Shown: positions 2 to 11,217 of the stretch, piece after piece | How positions within the stretch are numbered: the first letter of the stretch is position 1 | Layout: every line of letters begins with the position of its first letter | Assembly (NCBI GenBank): GCA_016845225.1 | Contig: JAERTB010000015.1 | Span: forward strand, 1 to 13,472 | Source of the DNA: Candidatus Woesearchaeota archaeon | Lineage (GTDB): Archaea; Nanobdellota; Nanobdellia; SCGC-AAA011-G17; UBA489 | Length of the DNA stretch: 13,472 nucleotides | Direction: 5' to 3' | Program-made: the position numbers and the translations under genes | The notes under the pieces: model-generated | Database searches by the model: none | Told to the model about the DNA's origin: nothing | The model's input: the letters and a program-made list of their open reading frames with translations, nothing else

Positions 2-2095
2 ATGTTTTTCATGTTTGCCGCTATGTACTATTATGTTAGGGCGTGGCAAGAAAAGAGATTAAGAACTGCAATGTTCTGCGGATTAACTTCAGGTATTTTA
101 ACTGGATTGATGGGCTTGACCTGGGGAGGAGTTAGTTTACTATTCTTAATCTTTGGATTATTTGTATTAATAGAAGTAGTCTTGGATAAATTTAGTGAAA
201 AAGATTTTTATGTTTATTCTGTTTGGTTGTTTTCTTTATTGTTTATCTTAAAAGTGTTCTTCGGACAAAGATATACGGTATCTACTTTGGCGTTGAGTGT
301 TACTAGCGGATTTATGTTTTTGGCATTTTTAGTTGGTTTGATTAATTTAATTATAAGAAAGAAAAATTTGTTTGGGATTAAAGATAAGATTGAAGGGAAG
401 TTGCCTCTCGGTTTTGCAAGTTTGATTATCTCTGGAGCATTAGGGGTATTTTTTGTTACAATTTTAGAAGGATTTGGAGCAATAGCTGGAAAGGTCTCTT
501 CCTTTATTCGTAACTTGTTGGAACCTTTTGGATTTACTAGATGGAATTTGACTGTTGCAGAAAGCCATCAACCATATGTATTTGATTGGATTTCAAGATG
601 GGGTTGGAGTTATATGTTGCTTATGATCGTGGGTTCAATTATTTTAGTATATAATCTGTTGAAAAAAACTAAACTAAAATGGAAAGGTACGGCATTTTAT
701 ACTTTCTTTATTTTTGCTTTTATTTTTAGTAGATATAAGGCAGATGCAACTTTGAATGGAGTAAATACTCTTTCTAAATCACTTTATGTTGGATCCTTGA
801 TTGCGTTGGGATTGGGCGCCATTTGGACTTATTTTTATGCTTATAGGAAAGATAAAGAATTATATAATTCAATTTTAAATTTTGATAAAAATACTATTTT
901 TGTGATTGTTTGGTTCTTATTATTGACAGTTGCAGCTAGAGGGGCAATTAGACTATTACATATTTATTCACCAGTTACAACGGTATTGGTGGCATATGCA
1001 TTCGTTAAGATATTTGATTATGCAAAGGGTTTAGAAATTAAATGGGCCAAATTTGGAGTTTATGGGATATTATTGATTTTATTATTCTTGCCTGCTGTTC
1101 AGGGAAGTTTAACAAATATGTATACAAGTGCAAATAATCAAGCTAAATATACTGGTCCAAGTTATGGATCACAATGGCAAACTTCTATGAAATGGGTTAG
1201 AGAAAACACTGATGAGGATGCAGTGTTTGCACATTGGTGGGATTATGGTTACTGGGTGCAAACTGGTGGAGAAAGAGCAACACTTACTGATGGTGGAAAT
1301 GCCGGAGGATATGCATTAAATTATTTCATGGGGAGACATGTGATTACTGGTCAAAGTGAAACTGAAGCTTTAGAATTTTTATATGCTAAAAATGCAACAC
1401 ACTTATTGATGGTTAGTGATGAAATTGGAAAATACCCTGCTTTTAGTAGTATTGGTAGTGATGTAGATTATGATAGATATGGGTGGATAACTACTTTCCA
1501 AATGGATAAATCTAGAACTCAAGAAAGAAGAAATGATACTAATTTGTTTTATGCTGGAAGTTATGCATTTGATGAAGACTTTGTTTTTGCAGATACTTTA
1601 TTTGTAAAACAATCTGGAGGAATTGGAGCATTTTTACTTCCTGCAGTTCCTCAAGAAGATGGAACTATGGTGTTAAAACAACCTGAAGCGGTTGTTGTTC
1701 AAAACGGTCAACAATATAGTATTCCTGTCGAATGTATCTTTATTGAAGGTAAAGAAATTGAATTTGAACAACCAGGATTGAAAGGATGTTTGATGATTCT
1801 TCCAAGAGTTAATGGAAATCAAAATGAGCCGTTCGGTGCTGCTATTTGGATTAGTCCTAAGATTAGAAGAACTTTATTTACTCAGTTGTATCTTTATGGG
1901 GTTGAAAGTGAAAACTTCAAACTAGTTTATGATGATTCTGCTCAATTCTTCCCTGAAGGATTAAGTTTGGGAGTATATAATGGAAGATTAATTGGTCCTC
2001 AAAAGATTTGGGAAATGAATTATCCTAAGGGTCTTGAACCTAGTGAATTCTATTATAGTAATGTTTTACCTGATGAAAGAGTTAGAGAATCTTAA
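2..2095 (+). CDS. aglB: Archaeal oligosaccharyltransferase AglB/STT3 (dolichyl-phosphooligosaccharide-protein glycotransferase), 5'-truncated by the window edge
   Basis: The ORF is open to the left edge. A polytopic membrane part is followed by a soluble C-terminal domain. It carries the catalytic signature WWDYGYW (AHWWDYGYWVQTGG). The loop motif TVAESHQP resembles STT3 SVSEHQP / TIXE. A DK-like segment, SDEIGKYPAFSSI, lies roughly 60 aa after WWDYG. Confidence 0.88.
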   Translation: MFFMFAAMYYYVRAWQEKRLRTAMFCGLTSGILTGLMGLTWGGVSLLFLIFGLFVLIEVVLDKFSEKDFYVYSVWLFSLLFILKVFFGQRYTVSTLALSVTSGFMFLAFLVGLINLIIRKKNLFGIKDKIEGKLPLGFASLIISGALGVFFVTILEGFGAIAGKVSSFIRNLLEPFGFTRWNLTVAESHQPYVFDWISRWGWSYMLLMIVGSIILVYNLLKKTKLKWKGTAFYTFFIFAFIFSRYKADATLNGVNTLSKSLYVGSLIALGLGAIWTYFYAYRKDKELYNSILNFDKNTIFVIVWFLLLTVAARGAIRLLHIYSPVTTVLVAYAFVKIFDYAKGLEIKWAKFGVYGILLILLFLPAVQGSLTNMYTSANNQAKYTGPSYGSQWQTSMKWVRENTDEDAVFAHWWDYGYWVQTGGERATLTDGGNAGGYALNYFMGRHVITGQSETEALEFLYAKNATHLLMVSDEIGKYPAFSSIGSDVDYDRYGWITTFQMDKSRTQERRNDTNLFYAGSYAFDEDFVFADTLFVKQSGGIGAFLLPAVPQEDGTMVLKQPEAVVVQNGQQYSIPVECIFIEGKEIEFEQPGLKGCLMILPRVNGNQNEPFGAAIWISPKIRRTLFTQLYLYGVESENFKLVYDDSAQFFPEGLSLGVYNGRLIGPQKIWEMNYPKGLEPSEFYYSNVLPDERVRES

Positions 2096-2523
2096 TTTCT
2101 TCTTTTTATCCAGGCTATTAATGATATTGCTCTTGCGTCTAAATGTTTTTTTCTAAGAAGTAATGTAAAATCTAGTGAAAGATGAAGCATCATTCCTAAG
2201 AAAGTTATTGTGAACATGTAAAATAAGAATTTTTGATTGAAGTAATAAGATGCAATGCTAGATAATATCATAAATAACCAAAATTCCCAAGTGTGAAATA
2301 AATGTAGTAAATCTCTTTCATAGTGTTTATTTTTATGCCTATTAAAGTGATAGTGATAGGATTTCTTCAAAGATAGAGTTTTTAGTTTGAATACTGTCCA
2401 AAGATAGTGATCAAAATCAATTAACCATCCGCCAACTAATGCCCATAATGCATAGAGTCCTAAGTACGGATATAAAATAAAACTTAAAATTAAGGAAGTG
2501 ATAAAGTGTACTGAAACATTCAT
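2092..2523 (-). CDS. Small polytopic membrane protein, probable DUF457/YdjM-like membrane-bound metal-dependent hydrolase
   Basis: 143 aa with about 4 hydrophobic segments. His near the N-terminus (VSVHF) and the WLIDFDHYLW motif resemble the H...PD-x-DH pattern of the YdjM/DUF457 family. The start lies 1 nt after the secD stop (2525-2527), so it is the last gene of the secF-secD operon. Its stop overlaps the aglB stop convergently (2092-2095). The family call is from memory only. Confidence 0.5.
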   Translation of the reverse strand: MNVSVHFITSLILSFILYPYLGLYALWALVGGWLIDFDHYLWTVFKLKTLSLKKSYHYHFNRHKNKHYERDLLHLFHTWEFWLFMILSSIASYYFNQKFLFYMFTITFLGMMLHLSLDFTLLLRKKHLDARAISLIAWIKRRN

Positions 2524-2524
2524 C

Positions 2525-4255
2525 TTAATCTAATACTTTTTCAACTATTGATGCGAATGCTGGCCTTGTAATTAATACTCCAATAGTTACTCCTGCTATT
2601 GTTGTGATTGCGAATTGTTTTAGTAATCCTGCACCTGCAAACATTAGGGGCAACATAGCAACAACCGTTGTTGCATAAGCACTGAAAATGATAAAGAATG
2701 CTCTCTTAATCTTCTCTTTCCAGTTAAGAACTCTAATTCGTTGTTTAAGAACTTCGTCAGCAATGATAATTTGATCATCAATTCCTGTTCCCACTGCTGC
2801 AATAATTCCTGCAATAGCTGCTAGATCTAAGTTCCATTTGAATAACGTTGCAAAACCTAGAATTAATACTACTTCTGATATGCTTGTGAATGCCATAGGC
2901 AATACTATTTTGAATTTTCTGTATCTAATATAAACTACTATTCCTACAACGAATAATGCTAGGAAACCTGCCATAAATGCGTTCTTGATGAAAGCTTTAC
3001 CCATCATTGGACTTATAGTATCCATTTTAACAATATCTAATTTGTGAGGTAATGAACCTGTAATTAACACAGTTTGAAGATTATTCATACCTGCAACTGC
3101 ATCATTATATGCTAATTCTTCTGTTGCCCCATTTCCTGAACCTGAAATTGAAATTTGGGTTGTTTCTTCTCCTTTAAGATCTTCTGAGATTAGTAATGTG
3201 TCTACTAATTTTCCATCTAAGTATAAGTCTAAAGGTTTGGAAAGATATGCATTTGTTCCACTGTAATTGATTTCCAATTTATCTGTTATCTCGGCGTGTT
3301 TTTTAGCAGCATCTGCTGAAAGTGTGATTGCGAATCTAAAGTTACAATAAGCAACTTCTGGAGATTGAGTATTACAAGATTCAATAACTGCACATGAACC
3401 ATCATCTCTACATACATAAGGAATGTCTTTTTTCCCGCCTTCGAATACTGTTTCGTCACCTATTTTTGCTTCGAAAACTCCTTGCTTAGAAATAAGATCT
3501 TTTACTTCTTCTCTTGTTGCTCCTGCGATTTCAATTAATACAAATCTTGTTCCCTCAAGATCTTTTGCTGGCCTTATTTTAATATCTGCTAATCCATAGA
3601 TATTCATACGTTTATTCATAACGTCAATGATGTTGCTGATATCTTCAGAACTTACAGGTTCTTCAGAAATAGGTTTAAGCATTACTCTTGTTCCGCCTTG
3701 TAATTCTAGGCCTTTTTCGATATTGCTTGTTTTTGCTTTTCTTGCAGTTATTCCATGATCTCCCGTAGTTAGGAAAGCATAATCTGCCTTGTTTGTTTTT
3801 AGTATGAATTTGTTTTTAGTAATTAATTTTGAGACTATTCTATTGAATGCTTCTACGTCTTCTACAGCTTCATTGTTTATTTTTAATAATGTCAATCCAT
3901 TTTCTAATGGATTTTCTGAATCTGCTGCAATTATTGTTAAGTTTGAATCTACTTTGAATCCAATTGAAGAAACTATTTCGTATTTGGTAACTCCTGCTGA
4001 AGTTGTGATTGCTACTTCTTGTGGTTCTGGGATTAGTTTATCTGTTTCTATTTTGAAGTTAGATAAATCATTTATTTTAACTCCATTAATTTCTAAGATT
4101 TTTTCTCCAGGTTCTATTCCTTCTGCGAATGCAGGTGAATTTGAATCAACAGATCTGATTTCTACTCCTGTTGAGATTGGAGAAGGATCAATAACTAATA
4201 ATGCTAGGAACAAGAATGCAATTAATACCCAAACTCTTCCGCCTAATTTAGCCAT
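2525..4255 (-). CDS. secD: Protein-export membrane protein SecD (archaeal type) with an N-terminal tandem PDZ-like insertion
   Basis: TM1 is WVLIAFLFLALLVI. The canonical archaeal SecD entry motif GLELQGGTRVMLKP is present, as is a C-terminal multi-TM block with GTGIDDQIIIADE. The ATG at 4255 lies 1 nt after the secF stop and has GGAGG 11 nt upstream. The longer ORF start at 4288 has no SD and would overlap secF by 32 nt. An extra ~150 aa between TM1 and GLELQGG looks PDZ-like. Confidence 0.87.
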   Translation of the reverse strand: MAKLGGRVWVLIAFLFLALLVIDPSPISTGVEIRSVDSNSPAFAEGIEPGEKILEINGVKINDLSNFKIETDKLIPEPQEVAITTSAGVTKYEIVSSIGFKVDSNLTIIAADSENPLENGLTLLKINNEAVEDVEAFNRIVSKLITKNKFILKTNKADYAFLTTGDHGITARKAKTSNIEKGLELQGGTRVMLKPISEEPVSSEDISNIIDVMNKRMNIYGLADIKIRPAKDLEGTRFVLIEIAGATREEVKDLISKQGVFEAKIGDETVFEGGKKDIPYVCRDDGSCAVIESCNTQSPEVAYCNFRFAITLSADAAKKHAEITDKLEINYSGTNAYLSKPLDLYLDGKLVDTLLISEDLKGEETTQISISGSGNGATEELAYNDAVAGMNNLQTVLITGSLPHKLDIVKMDTISPMMGKAFIKNAFMAGFLALFVVGIVVYIRYRKFKIVLPMAFTSISEVVLILGFATLFKWNLDLAAIAGIIAAVGTGIDDQIIIADEVLKQRIRVLNWKEKIKRAFFIIFSAYATTVVAMLPLMFAGAGLLKQFAITTIAGVTIGVLITRPAFASIVEKVLD

Positions 4256-4256
4256 T

Positions 4257-5147
4257 TTAGTTTTTTCCTCCAAGTTGTTTTTCTGCATAATCTGCTAACA
4301 TTGGAGCGTTAAGCATGTAAGTTAAAATGATATCTACTAATAATCCAATTATAATAATCAAGAACATTTGTTTTAGGATTAAAGATGAAGATACGAAGTA
4401 TGCTGCCGAAATAGCTGCAATGGTGGTTATACTCATGGTTAGTCCTGTTTTCATTGAACTAATAACACTCTCAAGAATTGTCCCTTCTCTGTTTTTTAGT
4501 AACCTTGTTGTTAATAATACATCAGTGTCAATTGAATAACCAATTAATAATAATAGTGCTGCGATTCCTGCTGAAGAGATTCTCATGTCTAATATGTTAA
4601 TTATAGACAATGTAATCATTAGATCTCCTAAGGCTACAATAACCACTGCAAATGAAGGTAATAATTTTCTAAATGTAATTAATACCACTAATGACATGAA
4701 TAGGAAAGCAAAGATTAATGCCTTAACCATTTGTTTGTAAAAAGAATCTCCTAATGATGAACCTACAACTTCAATTGAAGAGTTTTCTTCTGTTAATTTT
4801 ATTCCTGTAACTTCTAGAATTCCTTTTTTCATGTCTTCTTCATTAATATCTGGGGTATCAATTACTATCCCGACTTCTTTATCTGTTCCAAACTCTGAAA
4901 GTCCTCTGATTAAAACTTCTGAAAAGTCTTTTTCTAAGGTTGTTGTTAGTAATGCTTTATCTATTTGAACGTCTGTGTAGAGTGTAACAGTCATTCCTCC
5001 ACTCAAAGAAATATCTTTTTGAATTATTTCTCCAGTAGTTATTTGTTGATTAATTAGTAAGATTGCTGAAAATAAGATTAATAGAATAGGTAAAATCATT
5101 AATTTTTTCGGATGATTCTTGAATATCTGTTCTATTTTCTTTTCCAT
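4257..5147 (-). CDS. secF: Protein-export membrane protein SecF (archaeal type)
   Basis: 296 aa. It has an N-terminal TM (LMILPILLILFSAILLI), a small extracytoplasmic domain and a C-terminal TM bundle with GYSIDTDVLLTTR (SecD/F RND-like motif). It sits directly upstream of secD. Confidence 0.87.
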   Translation of the reverse strand: MEKKIEQIFKNHPKKLMILPILLILFSAILLINQQITTGEIIQKDISLSGGMTVTLYTDVQIDKALLTTTLEKDFSEVLIRGLSEFGTDKEVGIVIDTPDINEEDMKKGILEVTGIKLTEENSSIEVVGSSLGDSFYKQMVKALIFAFLFMSLVVLITFRKLLPSFAVVIVALGDLMITLSIINILDMRISSAGIAALLLLIGYSIDTDVLLTTRLLKNREGTILESVISSMKTGLTMSITTIAAISAAYFVSSSLILKQMFLIIIIGLLVDIILTYMLNAPMLADYAEKQLGGKN

Positions 5148-5163
5148 GGTGTGATTTTGATGA

Positions 5164-5177
5164 TTTTATATTAAAAA
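5164..5177 (-). promoter_or_regulatory. TATA-box-like element for the secF operon
   Basis: The minus strand reads TTTTTAATATAAAA, centred about 24 nt upstream of the secF ATG (5147). There is no SD in between, which suggests a leaderless or very short-leader transcript. Confidence 0.4.
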
Positions 5178-5226
5178 CCTTTGGTTCAGACCAAATATCA
5201 TAACTTTTAAATAGTTTTGACTGGCA

Positions 5227-5236
5227 TTTATAAATA
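5227..5236 (+). promoter_or_regulatory. TATA-box-like element (TTTATAAATA) upstream of the surface-protein operon
   Basis: TTTATAAATA lies 30-39 nt upstream of the ATG at 5266. A second candidate, TTTTAAATA, is at 5205-5213. GAGGT (5256-5260) lies 5 nt before the ATG as an SD. The identical 10-mer occurs upstream of the gene at 13068. Confidence 0.35.
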
Positions 5237-5265
5237 GTTGTGAATACGGTAAAAAGAGGTTTAAT

Positions 5266-7854
5266 ATGGTCATAAGATGGTATGAAAAGAAGGGGGTATT
5301 TGGAAGTTTATTATTCTTAATTTTATGTTCATTTATTGTCTTTGGAGCTACTAATTCTGAACCTTCTGAAATTTATTTAGATGGAAATGTTAGTGAACTT
5401 TCTTTTGTTTCTGGAGAGCCAGTTTTATTGGATTTTATTATTAATTTTACCGGACCTATTTCTCCTAATACTTTACTGAATATTTCATTTGATGATGAAA
5501 GTAAATCTAAAAAATTGAAAAGTTTGTTAGATTATCAGGGAATTTTATATGATATTGATGGTGAAAATTATAGATTGTTAAATTCTAATCCTAATGTGGA
5601 TTTGATTTATAATTCTGCAGGGGATCATGTTGTTTATTTAATGGTCGATACGCCTGAAGATGTATTTGAATCTATTTCATTTGGCATAACTGGTTCTGGA
5701 ATGAATCCTTCTTATTCACCGTATTTAGATTTTGGAAATGATGGATTAATTGAGTGGCAATATTTTGGAGGACTTACTAATTATGTTGAGGACTTTAGTT
5801 TACCTGAAGAACTTAATGAAAATGGAAATCCTAGTGAGATTATATTAAAAAATGAAGCAGCCATAGATAGGACTTATTGGTGTGAAGAGATTAAATTACC
5901 CTATACTCGAGATTTGGAAGTTTATGTAGCTATTGAAGATTTGTTGGGATTAAATTTAACTGCAACATTGTTGCAACTTGAAGCTCCTGGATGTACAGAT
6001 TCTACTGGATGTGAAGCTTATGGTGGACAATTTGAATGTGACCTTGAGACTAATTTAGGTACACCTTCTAATTATTATAATTGTTCGATGGACATTGGTT
6101 ATGCTGTGGAAGATAAATATCTTGTTTGCATCTATAATAATGTAGATGGTGATGGTACAATTCATCAAGGAAAATTGAAAGCTGAGATGGGCGGAGATAC
6201 TTCCGCATATACTTGTGAACTTTCTGGTTCTTCGTATGTTTGTAATGATTTTTCTTCTGATGATTTTTTTATTAAAGTTAAAGGGGGAAATTATACTTAT
6301 GAATTAGGAAATTTTTCAGCAGATTTTGGATCAAGTTTAGTTAATAGTTATGCTGCATTTGAAAATAATCTTAATGGTTTAATCGAAGATTGCGTTGAGT
6401 TAAGTGATGGTGGGTGTGCTATTCCTGTAAGGATTGGAAGTTTGAGTCCTGCAGCAATTGCAATTCATAGTTTGGATATGTATTATACTTCTAGTGGGGC
6501 TACAAAATCTAAAACTTCGTTTTATATGACTTTGATTGCAGAAGAAGGCTCGCTTATTGAAATTGGAGATATAGATCTATTAGATTTGAGTGACGGAAGC
6601 AGTTTAAATATGGATACCTCAGGTATGTTTTTTTATGTTCCTCAAGTTGATGAAGAAGATGATTATGAATTCAATATGGGGTTAATGCCTGGGCCTAAAG
6701 TTACATTAGATGCAAGTATTAGCCCTTCAGAGGAATGGAATAATTCATTATATAATGAATCTACGACTGAAGATTTTATTAAAGAATATATCGCTAGTTT
6801 GAATTATCAAACCTCTAATTATGCAGATGTTTTAGAATTCTTAGAATTAAGTAGTACTGTGACTTCTGCACTTAGTGGATTAAATTCTTATTTGAATGAT
6901 TCCTATAATGTTAATTATTCTAATTCAAATGAATCTCAAACTTTTTTAGAAAATTTGACTATTAATTTAGATTCAATTGTGCTGGGTACCCCAAAATCAA
7001 TTGAAGTTGTTGTAGATATTTCAGAACAAATAATTGCTGAACCTCAAGACATCTTGATTGATATGGTTGCAGGTGGAGAAACAGAAAGAGTTAATGCTTA
7101 TCACCATCAAAATGATTTTGTGGTTAATTCTAGGGCAAGACATTTGAAAGTAGAACTTCATGGAGGAGTAATTATTGAAGGTACTTGGATTGAAAAAAAT
7201 ATTGTTGGGACTGGAAATGATTATTATCTTTATGAAACTATTCCTGGAAACTTGTATGTTGATCCAATATATGAACTTTCCTTTAAAGAACCTTTTGAAA
7301 TGCACAGACAAGTTCCAAATTTAGTTTATATGAAAGAGTATAGTTCGTTGAATAATGCTGCTTATTCATATTTTGTTAGGAAGAATATTGCCTTTGATTT
7401 GAGTAGTTTGAAAACAATATTAATACCTCAAACAGGTGTTTCTGAAGTAGAATATGAAACTGTTCCTGTTTGTGGCGATGGCGTATGCAGTGTATTGATT
7501 GTGGATGGAGAAAGAGTTCCATTGGAAGATAAATTATCTTGTCCAGAAGACTGTTCAAAGAAGGTTAATTGGACAGGAATTTTAGTTGCTTTTATGATTG
7601 GATTATTGTTGATTGTTGGAATGGTACTTTATTTTAAATTAACTGGAAGGGATTCTTCGGATTCTAGGTTGAAAAAACAATTTGGAATTTTTAATAATCC
7701 TGGAGATGAATTTAAACTTAAGAAATATGTTTCTGATTCAATCAAAGGAAAGAAAACTAAAGAAACAATTGTTGCAGATTTATTGAAAAGAGGATGGAGT
7801 AAGGAGCAAGTAGATTATGTTTTTAAAAATCTAAATATTGCTAAGAAAAAATGA
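5266..7854 (+). CDS. Large type-I surface-anchored, probably N-glycosylated protein of unknown family
   Basis: 862 aa. The N-terminal signal/anchor is VFGSLLFLILCSFIVFGA. The ~750-aa ectodomain has at least 14 N-x-S/T sequons and scattered Cys. The juxtamembrane motif is CGDGVCSVLIVDGERVPLEDKLSCPEDC. There is a single TM (ILVAFMIGLLLIVGMVLYF) and a basic cytoplasmic tail ending LLKRGWSKEQVDYVFKNL. An SD (GAGGT) precedes the start. I recognised no family. Confidence 0.8.
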   Translation: MVIRWYEKKGVFGSLLFLILCSFIVFGATNSEPSEIYLDGNVSELSFVSGEPVLLDFIINFTGPISPNTLLNISFDDESKSKKLKSLLDYQGILYDIDGENYRLLNSNPNVDLIYNSAGDHVVYLMVDTPEDVFESISFGITGSGMNPSYSPYLDFGNDGLIEWQYFGGLTNYVEDFSLPEELNENGNPSEIILKNEAAIDRTYWCEEIKLPYTRDLEVYVAIEDLLGLNLTATLLQLEAPGCTDSTGCEAYGGQFECDLETNLGTPSNYYNCSMDIGYAVEDKYLVCIYNNVDGDGTIHQGKLKAEMGGDTSAYTCELSGSSYVCNDFSSDDFFIKVKGGNYTYELGNFSADFGSSLVNSYAAFENNLNGLIEDCVELSDGGCAIPVRIGSLSPAAIAIHSLDMYYTSSGATKSKTSFYMTLIAEEGSLIEIGDIDLLDLSDGSSLNMDTSGMFFYVPQVDEEDDYEFNMGLMPGPKVTLDASISPSEEWNNSLYNESTTEDFIKEYIASLNYQTSNYADVLEFLELSSTVTSALSGLNSYLNDSYNVNYSNSNESQTFLENLTINLDSIVLGTPKSIEVVVDISEQIIAEPQDILIDMVAGGETERVNAYHHQNDFVVNSRARHLKVELHGGVIIEGTWIEKNIVGTGNDYYLYETIPGNLYVDPIYELSFKEPFEMHRQVPNLVYMKEYSSLNNAAYSYFVRKNIAFDLSSLKTILIPQTGVSEVEYETVPVCGDGVCSVLIVDGERVPLEDKLSCPEDCSKKVNWTGILVAFMIGLLLIVGMVLYFKLTGRDSSDSRLKKQFGIFNNPGDEFKLKKYVSDSIKGKKTKETIVADLLKRGWSKEQVDYVFKNLNIAKKK

Positions 7855-9068
7855 GAGTTAAATTATTTTTAATTAGTTTTTTATTGTTGACGGTTTCTGT
7901 TAGTGCACTTCCTTGTCAGGATGGACAAGAAAGAGTTTGCGGGGAATATGATTTAGGAATTTGTAGTTATGGAATTCAATATTGTGAAAATGGTCAGTGG
8001 AGTTTTTGTATGGGCCAGAAATTGCCTGAGGTTGAAGTATGCGGTGATGGATTGGATAATGATTGTGATGGTTATGAAGATGAGGGATGCGAATGTGTTT
8101 CTGGGGATTTTAGGGAATGTGGAAATTTTACTTCCGTAGGTATATGTGAAAAAGGTAAAGAATATTGTGTTGATGGAGAATGGTCTGGAGATTGTTTGAA
8201 TGCTACTTTGCCAGATGCTGAAAAATGTGGAGCTCAGGGAACTGGTGATGGATTGGATAATGATTGCGATGGTTCTGTTGATGAAGATTGTGCATTGGGT
8301 GCAGGGGGAGTTCCATTACATTGTACTGATAGAGTAAAGAACGAGGATGAAACGGGTGTTGATTGTGGGGGCTCTTGCAATGAATGCAATGATTGCAACG
8401 ATGGAATTTTAGAGTTGGATGAAAAGAAAACTTCTATAGATTTGGGCGCAGGAGTAATAAGTGATTGTGGAGGACTGAACTGTCCTAAATGTCCGACATG
8501 TAATGATAAGGTTAAAAATCAAGGCGAAGAGGATGTAGATTGTGGAGGTCCTTGTCCTGCAAAATGTTATGATCCTACTTTGGGTGATGAAGATGGTGAC
8601 GGATTAATTTATTCTGAAGAATTATTGAAAGGAACTAATCCTAAAAATGCAGATAGTGATGGCGATGGATTAAAAGATGGAGTAGATAAATTGCCGTTAT
8701 GTCCAAATTCTATATGTGGTAAGGGAGAGACTGAAGATAATTGTCCTCAAGATTGTAAATCTGAAAGTTCTGGAAGCGGAGTTTTAGTAGTAGTTATGAT
8801 TTTAGTTCTTTTATTTTTTGGAGTAATATTATTCTTTTATTTTAATATGAAATCTTCTTCAAAGAATGTTAAAAAGAAAAGTTTAGGGGGTTTTTCAGAT
8901 TTGGAAAGTTATGTTCCTAAGAGAGAAAATGTGAAAAAAAGACTTCAACAAAGAAATTTCCCAAGAACTTATGTTCGTGGTTCAAGTAGGGGCGCAAAAG
9001 CTAAGCAAAAAGAAACAGATATTGAGAAAAAATTAAGAAAAGCTGTTGAAGATATTAATAAAAAATAA
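7851..9068 (+). CDS. Cys-rich modular type-I surface protein: 2x MopE-like CGDGLDNDCDG repeats, 2x DCGG-x-C modules, thrombospondin type-3-like Ca-binding repeats, TM anchor and basic tail
   Basis: 405 aa. The ATG overlaps the upstream stop (ATGA at 7851-7854). The signal peptide is LFLISFLLLTVSVSA. I count about 32 Cys in a ~290-aa ectodomain. Two ~60-aa repeats end in GDGLDNDCDG-x3-DE-x-C. Two modules read C-x-D-[RK]-VKN-x-[DG]-E-x2-VDCGG-x-C. The TSP3-like stretch is DEDGDGL...NADSDGDGLKDGVD. The motif CGKGETEDNCPQDC precedes the TM (VLVVVMILVLLFFGVILFFYF), which is followed by a Lys/Arg-rich tail. Confidence 0.85.
   Translation: MRVKLFLISFLLLTVSVSALPCQDGQERVCGEYDLGICSYGIQYCENGQWSFCMGQKLPEVEVCGDGLDNDCDGYEDEGCECVSGDFRECGNFTSVGICEKGKEYCVDGEWSGDCLNATLPDAEKCGAQGTGDGLDNDCDGSVDEDCALGAGGVPLHCTDRVKNEDETGVDCGGSCNECNDCNDGILELDEKKTSIDLGAGVISDCGGLNCPKCPTCNDKVKNQGEEDVDCGGPCPAKCYDPTLGDEDGDGLIYSEELLKGTNPKNADSDGDGLKDGVDKLPLCPNSICGKGETEDNCPQDCKSESSGSGVLVVVMILVLLFFGVILFFYFNMKSSSKNVKKKSLGGFSDLESYVPKRENVKKRLQQRNFPRTYVRGSSRGAKAKQKETDIEKKLRKAVEDINKK
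8043..8073 (+). repeat. Copy 1 of a 31-nt intragenic direct repeat (encodes GDGLDNDCDG)
   Basis: ggtgatggattggataatgattgtgatggtt matches 8244-8274 at 30 of 31 positions. Confidence 0.9.
8244..8274 (+). repeat. Copy 2 of the 31-nt intragenic direct repeat (encodes GDGLDNDCDG)
   Basis: ggtgatggattggataatgattgcgatggtt carries a single synonymous Cys-codon difference (tgt/tgc) from copy 1. Confidence 0.9.
9060..9065 (-). terminator. Oligo-T (T6) tract immediately downstream of tRNA-Gly, embedded in the last Lys codons of the plus-strand CDS
   Basis: After the tRNA 3' end the minus strand reads CTTATTTTTTATT. Archaeal termination typically uses oligo-T. Confidence 0.4.
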
Positions 9069-9069
9069 G

Positions 9070-9141
9070 TGCGCGGGCCGGGATTCGAACCCGGATCAAG
9101 AGCTTGGAAGGCTCCTATGCTAGCCATTACACTACCCACGC
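9070..9141 (-). tRNA. tRNA-Gly (anticodon UCC)
   Basis: The reverse complement is GCGTGGGTAGTGTAATGGCTAGCATAGGAGCCTTCCAAGCTCTTGATCCGGGTTCGAATCCCGGCCCGCGCA. It has a 7-bp acceptor stem (one G-U) and an anticodon stem GGAGC/GCTCT. The anticodon loop is CTTCCAA (U33, UCC, A37). The T arm is CCGGG-TTCGAAT-CCCGG and the discriminator is A. No CCA is encoded. Confidence 0.93.
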
Positions 9142-9166
9142 TTGGTTCAAATTGTATAATGTTTTG

Positions 9167-9174
9167 TTTTTAAA
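9167..9174 (-). promoter_or_regulatory. TATA box (TTTAAAAA) for tRNA-Gly
   Basis: The minus-strand TTTAAAAA spans -33 to -26 relative to tRNA-Gly position 1 (9141), the canonical archaeal spacing. Confidence 0.5.
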
Positions 9175-9194
9175 GATTTCTGAAGAAATTGATT

Positions 9195-9199
9195 AAAAA
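9195..9199 (-). terminator. Oligo-T (T5) tract 1 nt after the tRNA-Arg 3' end
   Basis: After the discriminator the minus strand reads G-C-TTTTT-AATC. Confidence 0.45.
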
Positions 9200-9200
9200 G

Positions 9201-9296
9201 CGGACCTGGAAGGATTTGAACCTTCGACCTACAGCTTAGGAGGTTCGACCCATTGTTCTATGGTCTGTCGCTCTATCCAAGCTGAGCTACAGGCCC
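9201..9296 (-). tRNA. tRNA-Arg (anticodon CCU) interrupted by a 21-nt non-canonical BHB intron at position 30/31
   Basis: The reverse complement is GGGCCTGTAGCTCAGCTTGGATAGAGCGACAG[ACCATAGAACAATGGGTCGAA]CCTCCTAAGCTGTAGGTCGAAGGTTCAAATCCTTCCAGGTCCG. The acceptor stem is GGGCCTG/CAGGTCC, the D stem GCTC/GAGC and the T arm GAAGG-TTCAAAT-CCTTC. After intron removal the anticodon stem is ACAGC/GCTGT and the loop is CTCCTAA. Confidence 0.85.
9244..9264 (-). other. tRNA-Arg intron (21 nt) with an hBHBh' splicing motif
   Basis: Outer helix GAG/CTC; bulge AAC; central 4-bp helix CGAC/GTCG; bulge AGA; inner helix CCAT/ATGG closed by AGAACA. Cutting after the second nucleotide of each bulge gives exactly the exon junction that restores the anticodon stem. 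Confidence 0.8.
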
Positions 9297-9411
9297 AGTT
9301 TTTTTTGAAGTTTTTTCATTCGTTTGTTCTTAATTGGATTTTTTAAGACCATATATTTTATGAGTGGTTAGTCTTTATTAAATTTCCCTCACTATCTACG
9401 CGGATAGAATT

Positions 9412-9437
9412 AAAAAATAAAAAGAGAAGACTCTTTT
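9412..9437 (-). terminator. Hairpin plus oligo-T terminator after the PIN-ATPase-KH gene
   Basis: The minus strand reads AAAAGAG-TCTT-CTCTTTT (7-bp stem overlapping the stop codon), followed directly by TATTTTTT. Confidence 0.5.
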
Positions 9438-11217
9438 AAGCCTTTACTTCTATTTTTCTTTTCTTCTTCAATGCCTTACTAATGTCCTTTCCTTGAAGAC
9501 TATTTTTGTTGATTTTTACTTCGCCTTTTTTGCTAGAAATTGCAGAGGTAATAAACTTATTTCCTGCATAAACTTCTATTGAAGTTCCAGGACTTACACA
9601 AAAGATATAGTTTTTTTTATTTTCTTCCAAATCAAACTCAATTTGATTCTTTTCTTCTTTGAGTTCTCTTATATCTATACTCATCCCTAAATCTTTTTCA
9701 CACTTAGTGATATTCTTTCCTGCTTGTCCGATTATTTTAGAAATCTTACTTTCTGGAACATAAACCACTGCCTTGTTTGTACTTAAAACTTCTACTTGAA
9801 CAAATTTAGAGTACTTTGAAAAGAAATTTTCTATTTCTTTTTCTGCAAGTTTTAATGCACCTGAACTTTTAGTTGAAGTTTTAGAAACGGGAATTACTAC
9901 AGTTTGTTCTCCATATGTGTAAATTTCGTAATCTAAGTTATTTGTTAATTCATCTCTTACTTCTACTACTGGTCTTGCAAGATCTGACTCAGTCATTCCA
10001 CTTGGAACTTTAACTAACATCTTTAGATTTAGGACTTTTTTTATTTCTCCTCCTTCCATGAAAATGATTGTGTCTACTACACTGGGAATCATTCCAATAT
10101 CCAATCTTGAAATAAATCTTTGTACTGCATCAATCGCTTGTGCTGCATGTAATACTCCTATCATATTTGATCCTGCCAACCTTAAATCAGTGTATAGTTG
10201 GAAATCTGGAGTTGAACGCATTTCATCAAATAAAATGTTATCTGGTCTTGATAAGAATAAGATGTCATGAATTTCTCCTTCTCCTGTAAAATTTTTAGAA
10301 TACTGTGTTACTGCGTCAGGCAGTTGTAAATCTCTAGGAGATTCAATTGTTTTTACAATCCTTCTATCATTTACGTACCATTCTGCAATTGCTTGTGCTA
10401 GTGTTGTTTTTCCTGAACCAGTTTCTCCACAAATTACAATCCCTCTTGCCTGATTTTCTATTTTGTTTGCTAAGTTTTCTGGAATTTTATATTCAGAAAT
10501 ATCTAATTTTTTAATTGGATGAACTATTGTGATTTCCCATCCGTCAGATACAGGAGGTCTTACTATCACAACTCTTAAGTTCCTGTATTGAACTACTGTT
10601 GTGCAACGTTTAGAAATTTCTGTATAAGAATTAGGATCTATTTTTGTTTTTTCAATTATTTCTTTTGCAAATTCTTGAATTTCTTCCCCTGTTAAGGTTT
10701 CTTTAGAAACTTGAATTAAATTTACTTCTCCGGGTTTTCCTTTTTTTGCTAAAATTGGATTTCCTTCTTTGATGTGAAGAGACAATGTTTCATTATCAAT
10801 GTATTTTTGTATACTTAGTTCTTTATCATATTTGGATACTTCAACAAATTCCACTAGAATTCCCAACGCTTTTGCAGACTCTGCTTGGACTTTATCTGCA
10901 GTAATTAATATGGAATTGTTTTTATCTGCTAAATCTCTGATATATGCATCAATTTCTCCAGATTTTGCATGTTTAATTTGGTGATCTGAAGGTCTTTCTC
11001 CGACGAATTCTAATTCTATTTTTTTATTATTTCTTAATTCTTGAATTTCTTCTAATCCTATTAATCCAATTTCTTTCCCTCTGTTTGCTTGGTTTTCTAA
11101 TTCTGCTATAACTGCATGAGGAATTAGTATTTTTCCTGTTTTGAGAGATTTATCCTTAAGCTTTCTAGTTGGTATCTTTTCAATTATTGCTGAGGTGTCT
11201 ATTACGTATGTTTTCAT
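9436..11217 (-). CDS. PIN domain / PilT-like ATPase / KH domain protein (archaeal COG1855-type PINc-domain ATPase)
   Basis: 593 aa. The N-terminal PIN domain carries acidic residues in the expected contexts (VIDTSA, AELE, EIDAYIRD, ITADK). The Walker A motif is GETGSGKTT, Walker B-like is ILFDEMR, and VLHA is also present. The C-terminal KH domain has a GxxG loop (IIGQAGKNI). The SD GGAG lies 5 nt upstream of the ATG. Confidence 0.88.
   Translation of the reverse strand: MKTYVIDTSAIIEKIPTRKLKDKSLKTGKILIPHAVIAELENQANRGKEIGLIGLEEIQELRNNKKIELEFVGERPSDHQIKHAKSGEIDAYIRDLADKNNSILITADKVQAESAKALGILVEFVEVSKYDKELSIQKYIDNETLSLHIKEGNPILAKKGKPGEVNLIQVSKETLTGEEIQEFAKEIIEKTKIDPNSYTEISKRCTTVVQYRNLRVVIVRPPVSDGWEITIVHPIKKLDISEYKIPENLANKIENQARGIVICGETGSGKTTLAQAIAEWYVNDRRIVKTIESPRDLQLPDAVTQYSKNFTGEGEIHDILFLSRPDNILFDEMRSTPDFQLYTDLRLAGSNMIGVLHAAQAIDAVQRFISRLDIGMIPSVVDTIIFMEGGEIKKVLNLKMLVKVPSGMTESDLARPVVEVRDELTNNLDYEIYTYGEQTVVIPVSKTSTKSSGALKLAEKEIENFFSKYSKFVQVEVLSTNKAVVYVPESKISKIIGQAGKNITKCEKDLGMSIDIRELKEEKNQIEFDLEENKKNYIFCVSPGTSIEVYAGNKFITSAISSKKGEVKINKNSLQGKDISKALKKKRKIEVKA

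What the first reader, a model, noticed from the sequence alone, without database searches (positions are those of the whole stretch)
5266..9068. Translationally coupled pair of type-I surface proteins: candidate uncharacterised cell-surface (attachment) module
Two consecutive genes overlap by ATGA (7851-7854), so they are almost certainly co-expressed. Both products share one architecture: signal peptide, large ectodomain, a juxtamembrane Cys motif, a single TM and a Lys/Arg-rich cytoplasmic tail. The 862-aa protein matches no family I can recognise and is heavily sequon-decorated. The 405-aa protein is a mosaic of metal/Ca-binding and disulfide-knot modules (MopE-like DGLDNDCDG, DCGG-x-C, TSP type-3-like DxDGDG). 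About 32 Cys in ~290 extracellular residues is striking for an archaeon. The pair sits between the SecDF/AglB envelope genes and a tRNA block. In small-genome, episymbiotic-type archaea, such paired surface proteins are prime candidates for cell-cell or host attachment. I know of no characterised function for this architecture pair.
Basis: partly seen in the sequence, partly recalled or inferred. Interest (0 to 1): 0.72.

Follow-up and report, generated by a model that had tools for sequence, protein, structure and literature searches.

The report
Conserved paired surface proteins of Woesearchaeota
Two overlapping genes encode a large and a small cysteine-rich membrane-anchored surface protein that stay together, next to the protein-export genes secDF, across a whole order of tiny uncultured archaea; no function is known, and they most likely form a core cell-envelope complex.

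Summary
ORF A (5266-7854, 862 aa) and ORF B (7851-9068, 405 aa) overlap by ATGA. Both have a signal peptide, an acidic ectodomain, one TM helix and a basic tail. A matches nothing in Pfam, NCBIfam, PHROGs or PDB. It nonetheless founds a coherent family: 455 cluster representatives at E<=1e-3, and every named member is a Woesearchaeota or Nanoarchaeia hypothetical protein. B has 32 Cys. Its orthologues carry MopE-type motifs (37/43) and bacterial TSP3 repeats (13/43).

New findings:
- The order secD-secF(-)|A(+)-B(+) is kept in nearly all of about 17 lineages, although A falls to 24% identity and the flanks reshuffle.
- The juxtamembrane 4-Cys knot plus TM of A and B are homologous (hhalign 99.1%, E 1.8e-18).
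- The knot and a cytoplasmic three-helix domain are the best conserved parts of A.
- A and B distances co-vary beyond phylogeny (partial r 0.65, against about 0 for controls).

Best reading: a constitutive, Sec-exported A/B envelope complex, with B as a Ca2+- and disulfide-stiffened stalk, loosely like SlaA/SlaB. The A structure model was poor, so A's ectodomain fold is unresolved. I rate it a new variant of a known kind, of moderate interest.

The parts
2525..4288 (-). secD, with a PDZ domain just after TM1. It belongs to the conserved four-gene neighbourhood.
   Evidence: Pfam SecD_SecF_C 1.1e-18 and PDZ 9.7e-8. It is adjacent to secF and A in 16 of about 17 lineages.
4257..5147 (-). secF, transcribed divergently from gene A.
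   Evidence: Pfam SecD_SecF_C 8e-28. The divergent adjacency to A is conserved.
5148..5265 (.). 118-bp divergent intergenic region between secF and A. It is AT-rich with TATA-like TTTTAAATA and TTTATAAATA boxes, and has an AAGAGGT Shine-Dalgarno-like site 7 nt before the ATG.
   Evidence: Read from the sequence. The equivalent spacer is 55-153 bp in other loci. Promoter function is inferred, not tested.
5266..7854 (+). Gene A: 862-aa type-I membrane glycoprotein and founding member of an unannotated family.
   Evidence: ORF. No Pfam, NCBIfam, PHROGs or PDB match. Exhaustive HMMER found 455 representatives at E<=1e-3 and 107 at E<=1e-30.
5266..5361 (+). A signal peptide (aa 1-32).
   Evidence: Hydrophobic segment 8-32. 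An N-terminal hydrophobic segment is present in most family members.
5362..6690 (+). A N-terminal beta-rich half (aa 33-475), covering modules N1 and N2. It holds invariant Cys 206, 258, 273, 288, 317, 326, 376 and 384 and the DFGxDGxxEW motif. Residues 200-340 are possibly a jelly-roll or lectin-like sandwich.
   Evidence: Alignments A1 and A5. AF2 gave strands with pLDDT 55-73 in 200-340. Foldseek hits to CBM27, the Cwp84 lectin-like domain and CBM4 were weak, at E about 0.01-0.3. Pacearchaeota PKD variants share this half.
6691..6990 (+). A helical region (aa 476-575). It is the least conserved module and carries the conserved sequons N550 and N553.
   Evidence: AF2 helices 498-572 with pLDDT 72-88. 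Mean identity 18%. Sequon columns conserved in 9-11 of 12 sequences.
6991..7461 (+). A membrane-proximal beta domain (aa 576-732).
   Evidence: AF2 strands 576-721. The module HMM is found in most family members and in short SP+BETA-CYS-TM-TAIL paralogues.
7462..7563 (+). A juxtamembrane 4-Cys knot (aa 733-766): C736-G-D-G-x-C741 ... LED ... C759-P-E-D-C763.
   Evidence: Invariant in 74 sequences. It is the most conserved module at 50% identity. It is homologous to B's knot.
7564..7650 (+). A transmembrane helix (aa 767-795).
   Evidence: Hydropathy and AF2 helix 769-793.
7651..7851 (+). A cytoplasmic tail (aa 796-862). It contains a conserved domain of about 45 aa with three helices and the motif F..(D/E)E..L..Y......I...L..KGW...Q(I/V).Y.F.
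   Evidence: F809, L839, W844 and Q848 are invariant or nearly so. AF2 helices 812-827, 832-841 and 846-861 have pLDDT 72-81. The domain is duplicated in tandem in about 30 of 150 representatives. Pfam matches were all sub-threshold: RepB_primase_C, RecX and UBA-like.
7851..7854 (+). ATGA overlap of A's stop codon with B's start codon.
   Evidence: Read. A -4 junction is possible in 8 lineages.
7851..9068 (+). Gene B: 405-aa type-I membrane protein with 32 Cys.
   Evidence: ORF and Cys count. About 45 full-length orthologues at 36-56% identity. AF2 pLDDT 81.5 and pTM 0.32.
7908..8291 (+). B tandem 8-Cys modules I and II (aa 20-147). Each is a beta-hairpin unit followed by a G(D/N)GLDNDCDGxxDExC MopE-type motif.
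   Evidence: Alignment A4 shows the Cys invariant. PF11617 scores 20.2 bits here and matches 37/43 orthologues at E<=0.01. pLDDT is 85-96.
8322..8567 (+). B three small 'DCGG' disulfide modules (aa 158-239), of the form C.(D/N)...N..E...DCGG.C..C.
   Evidence: Nearly invariant columns in A4. No Pfam or PDB match.
8580..8690 (+). B TSP3-like Ca2+-binding segment (aa 244-280): DEDGDGL...GTNP...DSDGDGLKDGVD.
   Evidence: TSP3_bac scores 13.5 bits here and matches 13/43 orthologues, best 2.4e-8. There is a local match to the Ca-binding segment of Bap: Foldseek probability 0.91 with 39-46% identity, and profile E 0.6.
8691..8762 (+). B juxtamembrane 4-Cys knot (aa 281-304): C284-P-N-S-I-C289 ... 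GETED-N-C298-P-Q-D-C302.
   Evidence: Invariant Cys in A4. Homologous to A's knot: hhalign 97.4%, E 1e-11; with the TM included, 99.1%, E 1.8e-18.
8772..8861 (+). B transmembrane helix (aa 308-337).
   Evidence: Hydropathy and AF2 helix 308-337.
8862..9065 (+). B basic cytoplasmic tail (aa 338-405). It is disordered except for a conserved C-terminal amphipathic helix (aa 390-404, nt 9018-9062).
   Evidence: pLDDT is below 50 for 339-385 and about 88 for 390-404. The consensus E(K)xLxKSxxKxxKxxKK appears in A4.
9069..9141 (-). tRNA-Gly(UCC), convergent, starting at the base after B's stop codon. It bounds the operon.
   Evidence: ARAGORN.

Best explanation
A and B are the two subunits of a lineage-specific, constitutive cell-envelope complex of Woesearchaeales-type DPANN archaea.

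Shown:
- The two genes form a co-directional, usually overlapping pair beside secDF.
- Both products have a signal peptide, an acidic Cys-containing ectodomain, one TM helix and a basic tail.
- Their juxtamembrane 4-Cys knot plus TM are homologous.
- The knot, the TM and A's cytoplasmic three-helix domain are the best conserved parts of A.
- A and B co-vary in evolutionary rate.

Inferred:
- Both are exported by Sec (helped by SecDF), N-glycosylated by AglB and disulfide-bonded outside the cell.
- They pair side by side through the homologous knot and TM modules.
- B, a string of small disulfide knots with DxDxDG-type acidic loops, acts as a Ca2+-stiffened stalk.
- A carries the larger, faster-evolving beta-rich and helical ectodomain that forms the exposed layer.
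- The conserved cytoplasmic domain of A and the terminal helix of B tie the complex to a cytoplasmic or membrane partner.

Functionally this would be an S-layer-like or pseudo-periplasm-forming scaffold, analogous to the bicistronic SlaA/SlaB pair. The same surface may secondarily mediate contact with other cells.
For: - Architecture of both proteins.
- Operon-like junction in most lineages.
- The order secD-secF|A-B is conserved while the flanks change and A falls to 24-28% identity.
- Family size and restriction to Nanoarchaeia.
- Homologous anchors.
- Conservation profile, with the knot at 50% and the tail at 33.5% against 18-27% for the ectodomain.
- Tandem duplication of the tail domain, which marks it as an independent domain.
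- Co-variation: partial r(A,B|SecD) = 0.65, against -0.005 and 0.08 for the SecF controls.
- Both ectodomains have a calculated pI of about 4, and sequons are modestly enriched with conserved positions.
- Ca-binding-type modules in B.
- Adjacent, bicistronic large and small subunits are the known design of Sulfolobales S-layers, and nothing is known about Woesearchaeota S-layers (PMC5744192).
- In Pacearchaeota, A-like proteins also sit next to Cys-rich type-I membrane proteins.
Against: - No direct evidence of abundance, lattice formation or physical A-B contact.
- The A model is poor (pLDDT 49), and no multimer prediction could be run.
- S-layer proteins are usually Cys-poor and do not carry conserved cytoplasmic domains. 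Here both subunits are TM-anchored, unlike SlaA.
- A Woesearchaeota metatranscriptome study lists annotated 'S-layer protein genes' among its top transcripts (PMC11606122). At least some lineages may therefore have another S-layer protein, though its identity could not be checked.
- B is missing downstream of A in L024 and not found within 950 bp in L026. secDF is not upstream in L017.
- The mirror-tree signal could reflect shared extracellular rate effects rather than contact.
Confidence: 0.42

Rival explanations
1. This is the first reader's idea: a host or cell-cell attachment receptor. The A/B heterodimer would be an adhesin whose lectin-like and Ca-binding ectodomains bind a partner cell's surface. 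Its conserved cytoplasmic domains would relay or anchor that contact, in the manner of integrins.
For: - Ca-binding TSP3 and Bap-like segment and MopE-type modules, which are typical of adhesins and matrix proteins.
- Weak jelly-roll, CBM or lectin-like fold hits for A residues 200-340.
- Ectodomains evolve faster than the anchors and faster than SecD and SecF.
- Conserved cytoplasmic domains on both chains.
- The Pacearchaeota A-like gene sits in a locus with type-IV-pilus-like assembly genes.
- DPANN archaea are mostly episymbionts, and their lineage-specific membrane or extracellular families are suspected to be symbiosis-related (PMC8204110).
Against: - The pair occupies one conserved locus with stable architecture across the order, linked to housekeeping secDF. 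It shows no sign of the copy-number expansion, domain shuffling or hypervariability usual for host-range adhesins.
- The fold hits are weak and rest on a low-confidence model.
- No ligand or host is known.
Confidence: 0.27
2. An accessory of the export or envelope-biogenesis machinery. A and/or B would work with SecDF on the outer face of the membrane, for example as a holdase, a folding or disulfide scaffold, or a glycoprotein quality-control factor, rather than being structural end products.
For: - The divergent secF|A arrangement, with a spacer of only 55-153 bp, is the most conserved feature of the locus. It is more conserved than the A-B adjacency.
- AglB lies nearby in the closest relatives.
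- SecD here carries an unusual extracytoplasmic PDZ domain.
Against: - After controlling for phylogeny, A and B do not co-vary with SecF: partial r about 0 and 0.08.
- Pacearchaeota A-like genes and L017 lack the secDF linkage.
- Large, acidic, glycosylated, fast-evolving ectodomains and 32 structural Cys are not typical of chaperones.
- There are no thioredoxin-type CxxC catalytic motifs in a recognisable fold.
Confidence: 0.1
3. B is a MopE-like extracellular copper or metal-acquisition protein, and A is its membrane partner or receptor.
For: The PF11617 'Cu-binding_MopE' motif occurs in 37/43 B orthologues. Some sources label relatives as 'MopE-related'.
Against: - PF11617 is only a short Cys/Asp motif, and this protein scores 20.2 bits against a cut-off of 27.
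- B's ectodomain has a single, non-conserved His (sequence), so a His-based Cu site is unlikely.
- There is no PDB-level similarity to MopE.
- No metal transporters are in the conserved neighbourhood.
Confidence: 0.05
4. The two proteins are functionally unrelated membrane proteins. Their adjacency is inherited synteny, and the shared motif is a generic lineage-specific anchor cassette.
For: The knot-TM-tail cassette also occurs with other ectodomains, in PKD variants and short paralogues. Some lineages have lost or separated B.
Against: - Adjacency and co-orientation persist where everything else around them has reshuffled, with overlapping reading frames in 12 lineages.
- B stays downstream even where a toxin-antitoxin cassette was inserted.
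- There is a specific A-B rate co-variation.
Confidence: 0.1

Closest known systems
Sulfolobales two-component S-layer SlaA/SlaB (bicistronic slaAB operon)
   Same: The large glycoprotein gene is followed directly by the gene for a smaller protein that has a C-terminal TM anchor and acts as a stalk. The genes are co-transcribed and both products are Sec-exported and N-glycosylated. SlaA contains Cys, which is unusual for S-layer proteins (PMC5744192).
   Different: No sequence or profile similarity to any solved structure was found, although whether SlaA/SlaB chains are in the PDB copy searched was not checked. Here both subunits are TM-anchored and both have conserved cytoplasmic elements. 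B is built of disulfide knots and Ca-binding loops, not beta-sandwiches plus a coiled coil. Lattice formation is unknown. According to the 2017 review, two-protein S-layers are so far known only in Crenarchaeota.
MopE-related / 'putative metal-binding motif' proteins (Pfam PF11617) of Myxococcota, Patescibacteria and others
   Same: B modules I and II carry the GxxLDNDCDGxxDExC motif. Hundreds of bacterial proteins align to this roughly 30% of B at 40-50% identity.
   Different: Only the repeat is shared. The full-length architecture (two 8-Cys modules, three DCGG modules, TSP3 segment, 4-Cys knot, TM, basic tail) is confined to Woesearchaeota and Nanoarchaeota orthologues. This protein falls below the Pfam cut-off. 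Nothing indicates copper binding.
Thrombospondin type-3 / bacterial TSP3 repeats (PF18884) and the Ca2+-binding segment of staphylococcal Bap
   Same: The DxDxDGxxDxxE acidic loops at B 244-280 match locally. Against Bap (7c7r, 7c7u) identity is 39-46%, with Foldseek probability 0.91.
   Different: The match is a single short segment and is not significant as a whole (E about 0.6-1.3). Ca2+ binding is inferred from the motif and was not tested.
Integrin-type alpha/beta heterodimers (analogy only)
   Same: Both consist of two type-I membrane glycoproteins, one large and one smaller with a Cys-rich stalk. Both have divalent-cation-binding acidic loops, single TMs and short conserved cytoplasmic tails.
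   Different: No homology was detected. B has no vWA/beta-I domain, and no beta-propeller was recognisable in A. Heterodimerisation is not shown.
Lineage-specific DPANN membrane and extracellular protein families of unknown function (Castelle et al. 2021, PMC8204110)
   Same: Like those families, these are hypothetical proteins restricted to DPANN lineages and predicted to be membrane-bound or extracellular, with a possible link to symbiosis.
   Different: That study treats such families in bulk. In the passages read, it does not describe this pair, its secDF linkage, the shared anchor or the cytoplasmic domain.

Membership tests
Pfam PF11617 Cu-binding_MopE (putative metal-binding motif) | Score at or above the gathering cut-off of 27 bits | tested here: not met
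   Window protein B scores 20.2 bits, E 7e-4, in two stretches.
Pfam PF11617 Cu-binding_MopE (putative metal-binding motif) | Motif present across the orthologous family | tested here: met
   37 of 43 B orthologues match at E<=0.01, best 2e-12. The motif columns D69, D71, C72, D73, D77 and E78 are invariant or nearly invariant.
MopE copper-binding proteins (Methylococcus MopE type) | Copper site and overall fold shared with MopE | tested here: not met
   No PDB match by sequence, profile or fold. The ectodomain has only one His, and it is not conserved.
Pfam PF18884 TSP3_bac | Score at or above the cut-off of 25 bits | tested here: not met
   B scores 13.5 bits. 13 of 43 orthologues match at E<=0.01, best 2.4e-8, so the repeat is real in the family but degenerate in this protein.
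Sulfolobales SlaA/SlaB S-layer | Adjacent, co-transcribed genes in the order large subunit then small subunit | tested here: met
   A then B, overlapping or no more than 45 nt apart in 16 lineages. Co-transcription is inferred.
Sulfolobales SlaA/SlaB S-layer | Sequence or fold homology to SlaA or SlaB | tested here: not met
   No PDB or Pfam match for A or B, or for their family profiles. The A fold model is too poor to exclude remote similarity.
Sulfolobales SlaA/SlaB S-layer | Only the small subunit is membrane-anchored; the large one forms the outer lattice | tested here: not met
   Both A and B have a C-terminal TM helix.
Archaeal S-layer proteins in general | Very high abundance and self-assembly into a lattice | not testable with these tools
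   No expression or imaging data could be accessed, and the supplement of PMC11606122 is not held.
C-terminal sorting signals (PGF-CTERM or CGP-CTERM type) | The TM is followed by only a few basic residues at the extreme C-terminus and is cleaved by a sortase | tested here: not met
   The tails are about 67-68 aa (A 796-862, B 338-405) and carry conserved folded elements. No NCBIfam CTERM model matched.
Archaeal fusexins / viral fusion glycoproteins | Fold or sequence similarity to class I or II fusogens | tested here: inconclusive
   No PDB sequence or profile match. Foldseek against PDB and BFVD gave only weak lectin or jelly-roll hits with TM no higher than 0.15, but the model itself is of low confidence.
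A-family (new, unnamed) | The architecture SP - N1 - N2 - helical - beta - 4-Cys knot - TM - KGW three-helix tail | tested here: met
   82 of about 150 representatives show the complete module order, and most of the others differ by one undetected module or are fragments. The window protein is the query.

The most novel reading that the evidence does not exclude
The pair is an integrin-like transmembrane adhesion and coupling heterodimer of DPANN archaea. A and B would pair through their homologous 4-Cys knot and TM modules and bind a partner cell or matrix with Ca2+-dependent ectodomains. They would transmit or anchor that contact inside the cell through a previously undescribed cytoplasmic three-helix 'KGW' domain. 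This would be the first molecular handle on how Woesearchaeota contact their hosts.
Probability: 0.12. Interest if true: 0.85.

Novelty: new variant of a known kind. Interest (0 to 1): 0.58.

Why it matters
Woesearchaeota are abundant, uncultured, small-genome archaea, and neither their envelope nor their mode of host contact is known. This pair is a conserved, order-wide candidate for their main surface complex. It comprises a large unannotated family (455 cluster representatives), a partner made of disulfide knots and Ca-binding loops, a shared membrane-proximal knot, and a conserved cytoplasmic domain.

If it is the envelope scaffold, it would be a two-protein, doubly anchored design not described in the 2017 review outside Crenarchaeota. 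If it is the attachment receptor, it gives a concrete target for studying DPANN symbiosis. Either way it supplies antigens for labelling and sorting these cells, and two families worth curating.

Tried and rejected
- Pfam, NCBIfam, PHROGs and PDB sequence searches on A gave nothing. A 74-sequence profile against PDB returned only coiled-coil noise at E>=0.9.
- The word-indexed homologue search found only 4-6 relatives of A, even when queried with a 12-sequence alignment. As a result the alignment allowed for structure prediction had only 7 rows, and the A model is poor (pLDDT 49).
- Foldseek of the A model against PDB and BFVD gave only weak jelly-roll or lectin-like hits. I treat these as a hint for residues 200-340, not as an assignment.
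- Foldseek and a profile search of B against PDB gave nothing except the local Bap segment.
- Tail-only Pfam scans gave sub-threshold hits to three-helix domains: RepB_primase_C 23.6 bits against 26.1, RecX and UBA_6. They suggest a fold class but give no membership.
- The bacterial promoter and terminator scan was uninformative, as expected for an archaeon. It found no terminator between A and B.
- Literature searches found no description of this pair. The supplement that might have identified the 'S-layer genes' of Woesearchaeota is not held.
- Rejected: a sortase-type C-terminal signal, because the tails are long and conserved.
- Rejected: copper-binding MopE function, because there is no His and no fold match.
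- Rejected: a mobile-element or viral origin, because the genes are core and syntenic and have no PHROGs hits.

Full report
**1. The observation**

The window is low-GC (about 31%). It carries an archaeal gene set: AglB/STT3, SecD, SecF, a PIN-ATPase-KH protein, a GCD14-type tRNA methyltransferase and two tRNAs.
- ORF A runs 5266-7854 (862 aa) and ORF B runs 7851-9068 (405 aa), both on the + strand. The A stop and B start share ATGA at 7851-7854.
- Hydropathy shows one N-terminal signal-like segment and one C-terminal TM segment in each protein, followed by basic tails. AF2 places long helices at A 769-793 and B 308-337.
- B has 32 Cys between residues 22 and 302, which is 7.9% Cys against 0-0.7% in the neighbouring proteins. 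A has 15 Cys.
- A's ectodomain has 13 N-x-S/T sequons against 7.9 +/- 2.5 in shuffles (p = 0.04). This is a modest enrichment, but several positions (N60, N230, N550, N553) recur in homologues.
- Both ectodomains have a calculated pI of about 4, and both tails a pI of about 10.
- The descriptive part of the finding is therefore correct. The corrections are that the sequon density was overstated, that the MopE and TSP3 hits of this particular protein are sub-threshold (20.2 bits against 27; 13.5 against 25), and that the 'tRNA block' is a single tRNA-Gly abutting B's stop codon.

**2. Protein A is unannotated but belongs to a large, coherent family**

A matches nothing in Pfam, NCBIfam, PHROGs or PDB sequences.
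- The word-indexed search found only four relatives at 98, 85, 46 and 40% identity. Those that carry names are Woesearchaeota or Nanoarchaeota hypothetical proteins.
- An exhaustive HMMER search with a profile of these found 455 cluster representatives at E<=1e-3, 214 at E<=1e-10 and 107 at E<=1e-30. Most are 800-900 aa long.
- The few members with names are 'hypothetical protein' from Candidatus Nanoarchaeia.
- I cut the family alignment into modules and searched each module back against the family. This gave a stable architecture: SP - N1 - N2 - helical - beta - 4-Cys knot - TM - tail.
- About 30 of 150 representatives have the tail domain duplicated in tandem. A few short paralogues keep only SP plus the C-terminal half.
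- Across 54 members the only Pfam domain seen repeatedly is PKD, in 8 divergent members. These include Pacearchaeota proteins that share A's N-terminal half and C-terminal anchor but have PKD domains in the middle.
- A 74-sequence profile finds nothing in PDB.
- The tools allowed only a 7-row alignment for the AF2 model, and the result is poor (pLDDT 49, pTM 0.30).
- The better-predicted parts are a beta-sandwich at about 200-340, a helical region at 498-572, a beta domain at 576-721 and a cytoplasmic three-helix unit at 812-861.
- Foldseek gives only weak jelly-roll, CBM, lectin or F5/8-type-C hits. I take this as a hint, not an assignment.

**3. Protein B is a string of small disulfide and Ca-type modules**

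About 45 full-length orthologues at 36-56% identity exist, and the named ones are all Woesearchaeota or Nanoarchaeota. Hundreds of bacterial 'MopE-related' proteins share only the first roughly 30% of B.
- Nearly all Cys are invariant in the alignment.
- The modules, in order, are:
  - two tandem 8-Cys modules, each ending in GxxLDNDCDGxxDExC;
  - three small 'DCGG' modules;
  - a TSP3-like acidic segment;
  - a 4-Cys knot;
  - a TM helix;
  - a basic, disordered tail ending in a conserved amphipathic helix.
- At family level, PF11617 matches 37/43 orthologues and TSP3_bac matches 13/43.
- AF2 is locally confident (pLDDT 81.5) but has a low pTM of 0.32, as expected for beads on a string.
- No solved structure matches. 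The one exception is the Ca-binding segment of Bap, which aligns locally to the TSP3-like stretch: Foldseek probability 0.91 at 39-46% identity, and profile E 0.6.
- The ectodomain has a single, non-conserved His, so a MopE-like copper site is unlikely.

**4. Synteny**

I looked up the contigs of seven B orthologues at 39-51% identity and scanned one genome per GTDB species with A-derived patterns, which gave 18 loci. I then mapped A, B, SecD, SecF, AglB and the PIN-ATPase by tblastn.
- secD-secF on the minus strand lie immediately upstream of A and diverge from it, with a spacer of 55-153 bp. This holds in every lineage whose contig reaches that far, except L017, where a 413-aa secreted protein sits upstream instead.
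- B follows A on the same strand in almost all lineages. A -4 overlap is possible in 8 lineages, a -32 to -53 overlap in 4, and a +3 to +45 gap in 4.
- In L021 and L027 a nucleotidyltransferase/HEPN-type cassette on the opposite strand has been inserted between A and B, yet B is retained downstream.
- B is absent within 6 kb in L024 and was not found in the 950 bp available in L026.
- The outer flanks differ widely between lineages: AglB, polysaccharide synthase genes, glutamate synthase, carbamoyltransferase, CofD. The four-gene core is therefore kept against a reshuffling background.
- In these same comparisons A falls to 24-28% identity, B to 39-45% and SecD to about 51%.
- In Pacearchaeota the PKD-type A-like gene is not next to secDF. 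It is, however, again adjacent to Cys-rich proteins, most with both a signal peptide and a C-terminal TM helix and one bearing MopE-like motifs. In one case the locus also holds FlaJ/TadC-like genes.

**5. Links between A and B**

A profile of A 728-800 aligned against a profile of B 276-340 gives 99.1% probability, E 1.8e-18, over 49 columns. The knots alone give 97.4%, E 1e-11. The consensus is P-(V/L)-C-x-(D/N)-x-x-C ... E-x3-(N/S)-C-P-x-D-C.
- Within A, this knot (50% mean pairwise identity) and the cytoplasmic tail domain (33.5%) are the most conserved parts. The ectodomain modules lie at 18-27%.
- In 14 lineages the pairwise distances of A and B correlate at r = 0.947. After removing the SecD distances the partial correlation is still 0.65. 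By contrast, A with SecF gives -0.005 and B with SecF gives 0.08. This is suggestive only, since extracellular proteins may share rate shifts, but it is specific to the pair.

**6. The cytoplasmic domain of A**

The tail carries an invariant or nearly invariant pattern: F809, D814, E815, Y821, L839, G843, W844, Q848. AF2 predicts three helices with pLDDT 72-81. Its tandem duplication in many members shows that it is an autonomous domain. Pfam gives only sub-threshold hits to small three-helix domains: RepB_primase_C at 23.6 bits against 26.1, RecX repeats and UBA_6. A conserved folded domain on the cytoplasmic side is not expected of a passive surface coat. It implies a partner inside the cell.

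**7. Interpretation**

Shown:
- a conserved, co-directional, mostly overlapping gene pair;
- type-I topology for both products;
- homologous anchors;
- a constrained anchor and tail with freer ectodomains;
- linkage to secDF.

Inferred:
- export by Sec/SecDF, N-glycosylation and extracellular disulfides;
- side-by-side pairing through the knot and TM;
- B acting as a Ca2+-stiffened stalk and A as the exposed subunit.

The reading I favour (0.42) is a constitutive envelope complex. It is functionally comparable to the bicistronic SlaA/SlaB S-layer of Sulfolobales, in which a large glycoprotein gene is followed by the gene for a smaller TM-anchored stalk (PMC5744192). It is not homologous to that system, and it differs in that both chains are anchored and carry cytoplasmic elements.

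Adhesin-like Ca modules, possible lectin-like folds, fast ectodomain evolution and cytoplasmic coupling fit it. The order-wide single conserved locus and stable architecture fit it less well.

The remaining rivals are less likely:
- an accessory of the Sec machinery (0.10);
- mere inherited synteny (0.10);
- MopE-like metal acquisition (0.05).

**8. Novelty and score**

Neither family is curated, and nothing in the searched literature describes the pair. Castelle et al. (PMC8204110) note in bulk that DPANN-specific families are often membrane-bound or extracellular and of unknown function.

The general kind of thing is known: membrane-anchored archaeal surface glycoproteins encoded as a two-gene unit. 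The particular design is new: two homologous knot-TM anchors, a stalk of disulfide knots and Ca-binding loops, a cytoplasmic three-helix domain, and the secDF linkage. I file it as a new variant of a known kind with interest 0.58. It is a real and well-supported conserved module in an important uncultured group, but it has no functional evidence and no confident structure for the larger subunit.

Noticed in passing
window 2525-4288 (-), SecD aa 33-80: SecD carries a PDZ domain directly after its first TM helix, which places it on the extracytoplasmic side (PDZ 9.7e-8, PDZ_2 and PDZ_6 above or near cut-off). The same PDZ hits recur in the SecD orthologues of the related loci. I do not know of a PDZ-bearing SecD as a described feature.
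   Followed up: partly
L021 3562-4574 and L027 8659-9249 (- strand): A cassette on the opposite strand has been inserted exactly between the A and B genes in two lineages. In L021 it consists of a roughly 200-aa nucleotidyltransferase-like ORF plus a 137-aa HEPN/DUF86-like ORF, a toxin-antitoxin-type pair; only the 196-aa nucleotidyltransferase-like ORF was seen in L027. In L021 the B ORF is also N-terminally disrupted, starting at GTG with 298 aa.
   Followed up: partly
L028 1-9712 and L029 259-5081: In Pacearchaeota, a PKD-containing A-like protein lies directly downstream of Cys-rich proteins with signal peptides (12-38 Cys), most also with a C-terminal TM helix. The 531-aa protein among them has DNDGD/DDDCDG MopE-like motifs. 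In L028 the cluster follows two T2SSF (FlaJ/TadC-like) genes and a protein with a type-IV-pilin-like class III signal peptide. Several of these proteins end in a shared (P/G)FF(T/N)xANLIV + TM + basic motif that looks like a lineage-specific C-terminal sorting signal.
   Followed up: partly
window 9068/9069; tRNA-Gly 9069-9141 (-): The tRNA-Gly(UCC) gene on the opposite strand begins at the base immediately after B's stop codon, with no spacer. No terminator-like hairpin is detectable anywhere in 5000-9500.
   Followed up: no
family members P0154, P0158, P0163, P0182 and others: About 30 of 150 A-family representatives carry two tandem copies of the cytoplasmic KGW three-helix domain. Short paralogues (P0227, P0233, P0235, P0237, P0240, P0243, P0253, P0257; 300-490 aa) have a signal peptide followed only by the helical/beta/knot/TM/tail half.
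   Followed up: partly
window 9436-11217 (-): A 593-aa PIN + T2SSE-type ATPase + KH protein lies a few kb downstream of the A-B pair in many related loci, on the opposite strand and at 56-94% identity. It is a conserved neighbour of unknown relevance.
   Followed up: no
L024 8845-9744: In the one lineage with A but no B within 6 kb, the gene after A encodes a 299-aa protein with an N-terminal Cys4 zinc-ribbon-like motif. Its sequence resembles a LAGLIDADG-type homing endonuclease by eye only. A PIG-L-like gene and a glycosyltransferase-like gene follow. This A also has an extended C-terminal tail.
   Followed up: no
window 2092-2523 (-): A 143-aa, His-rich, multi-TM ORF with no significant family match (DUF6122 at E 0.07) sits between AglB and SecD. 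Its 3' end overlaps the AglB stop codon by 4 nt on the opposite strand.
   Followed up: no
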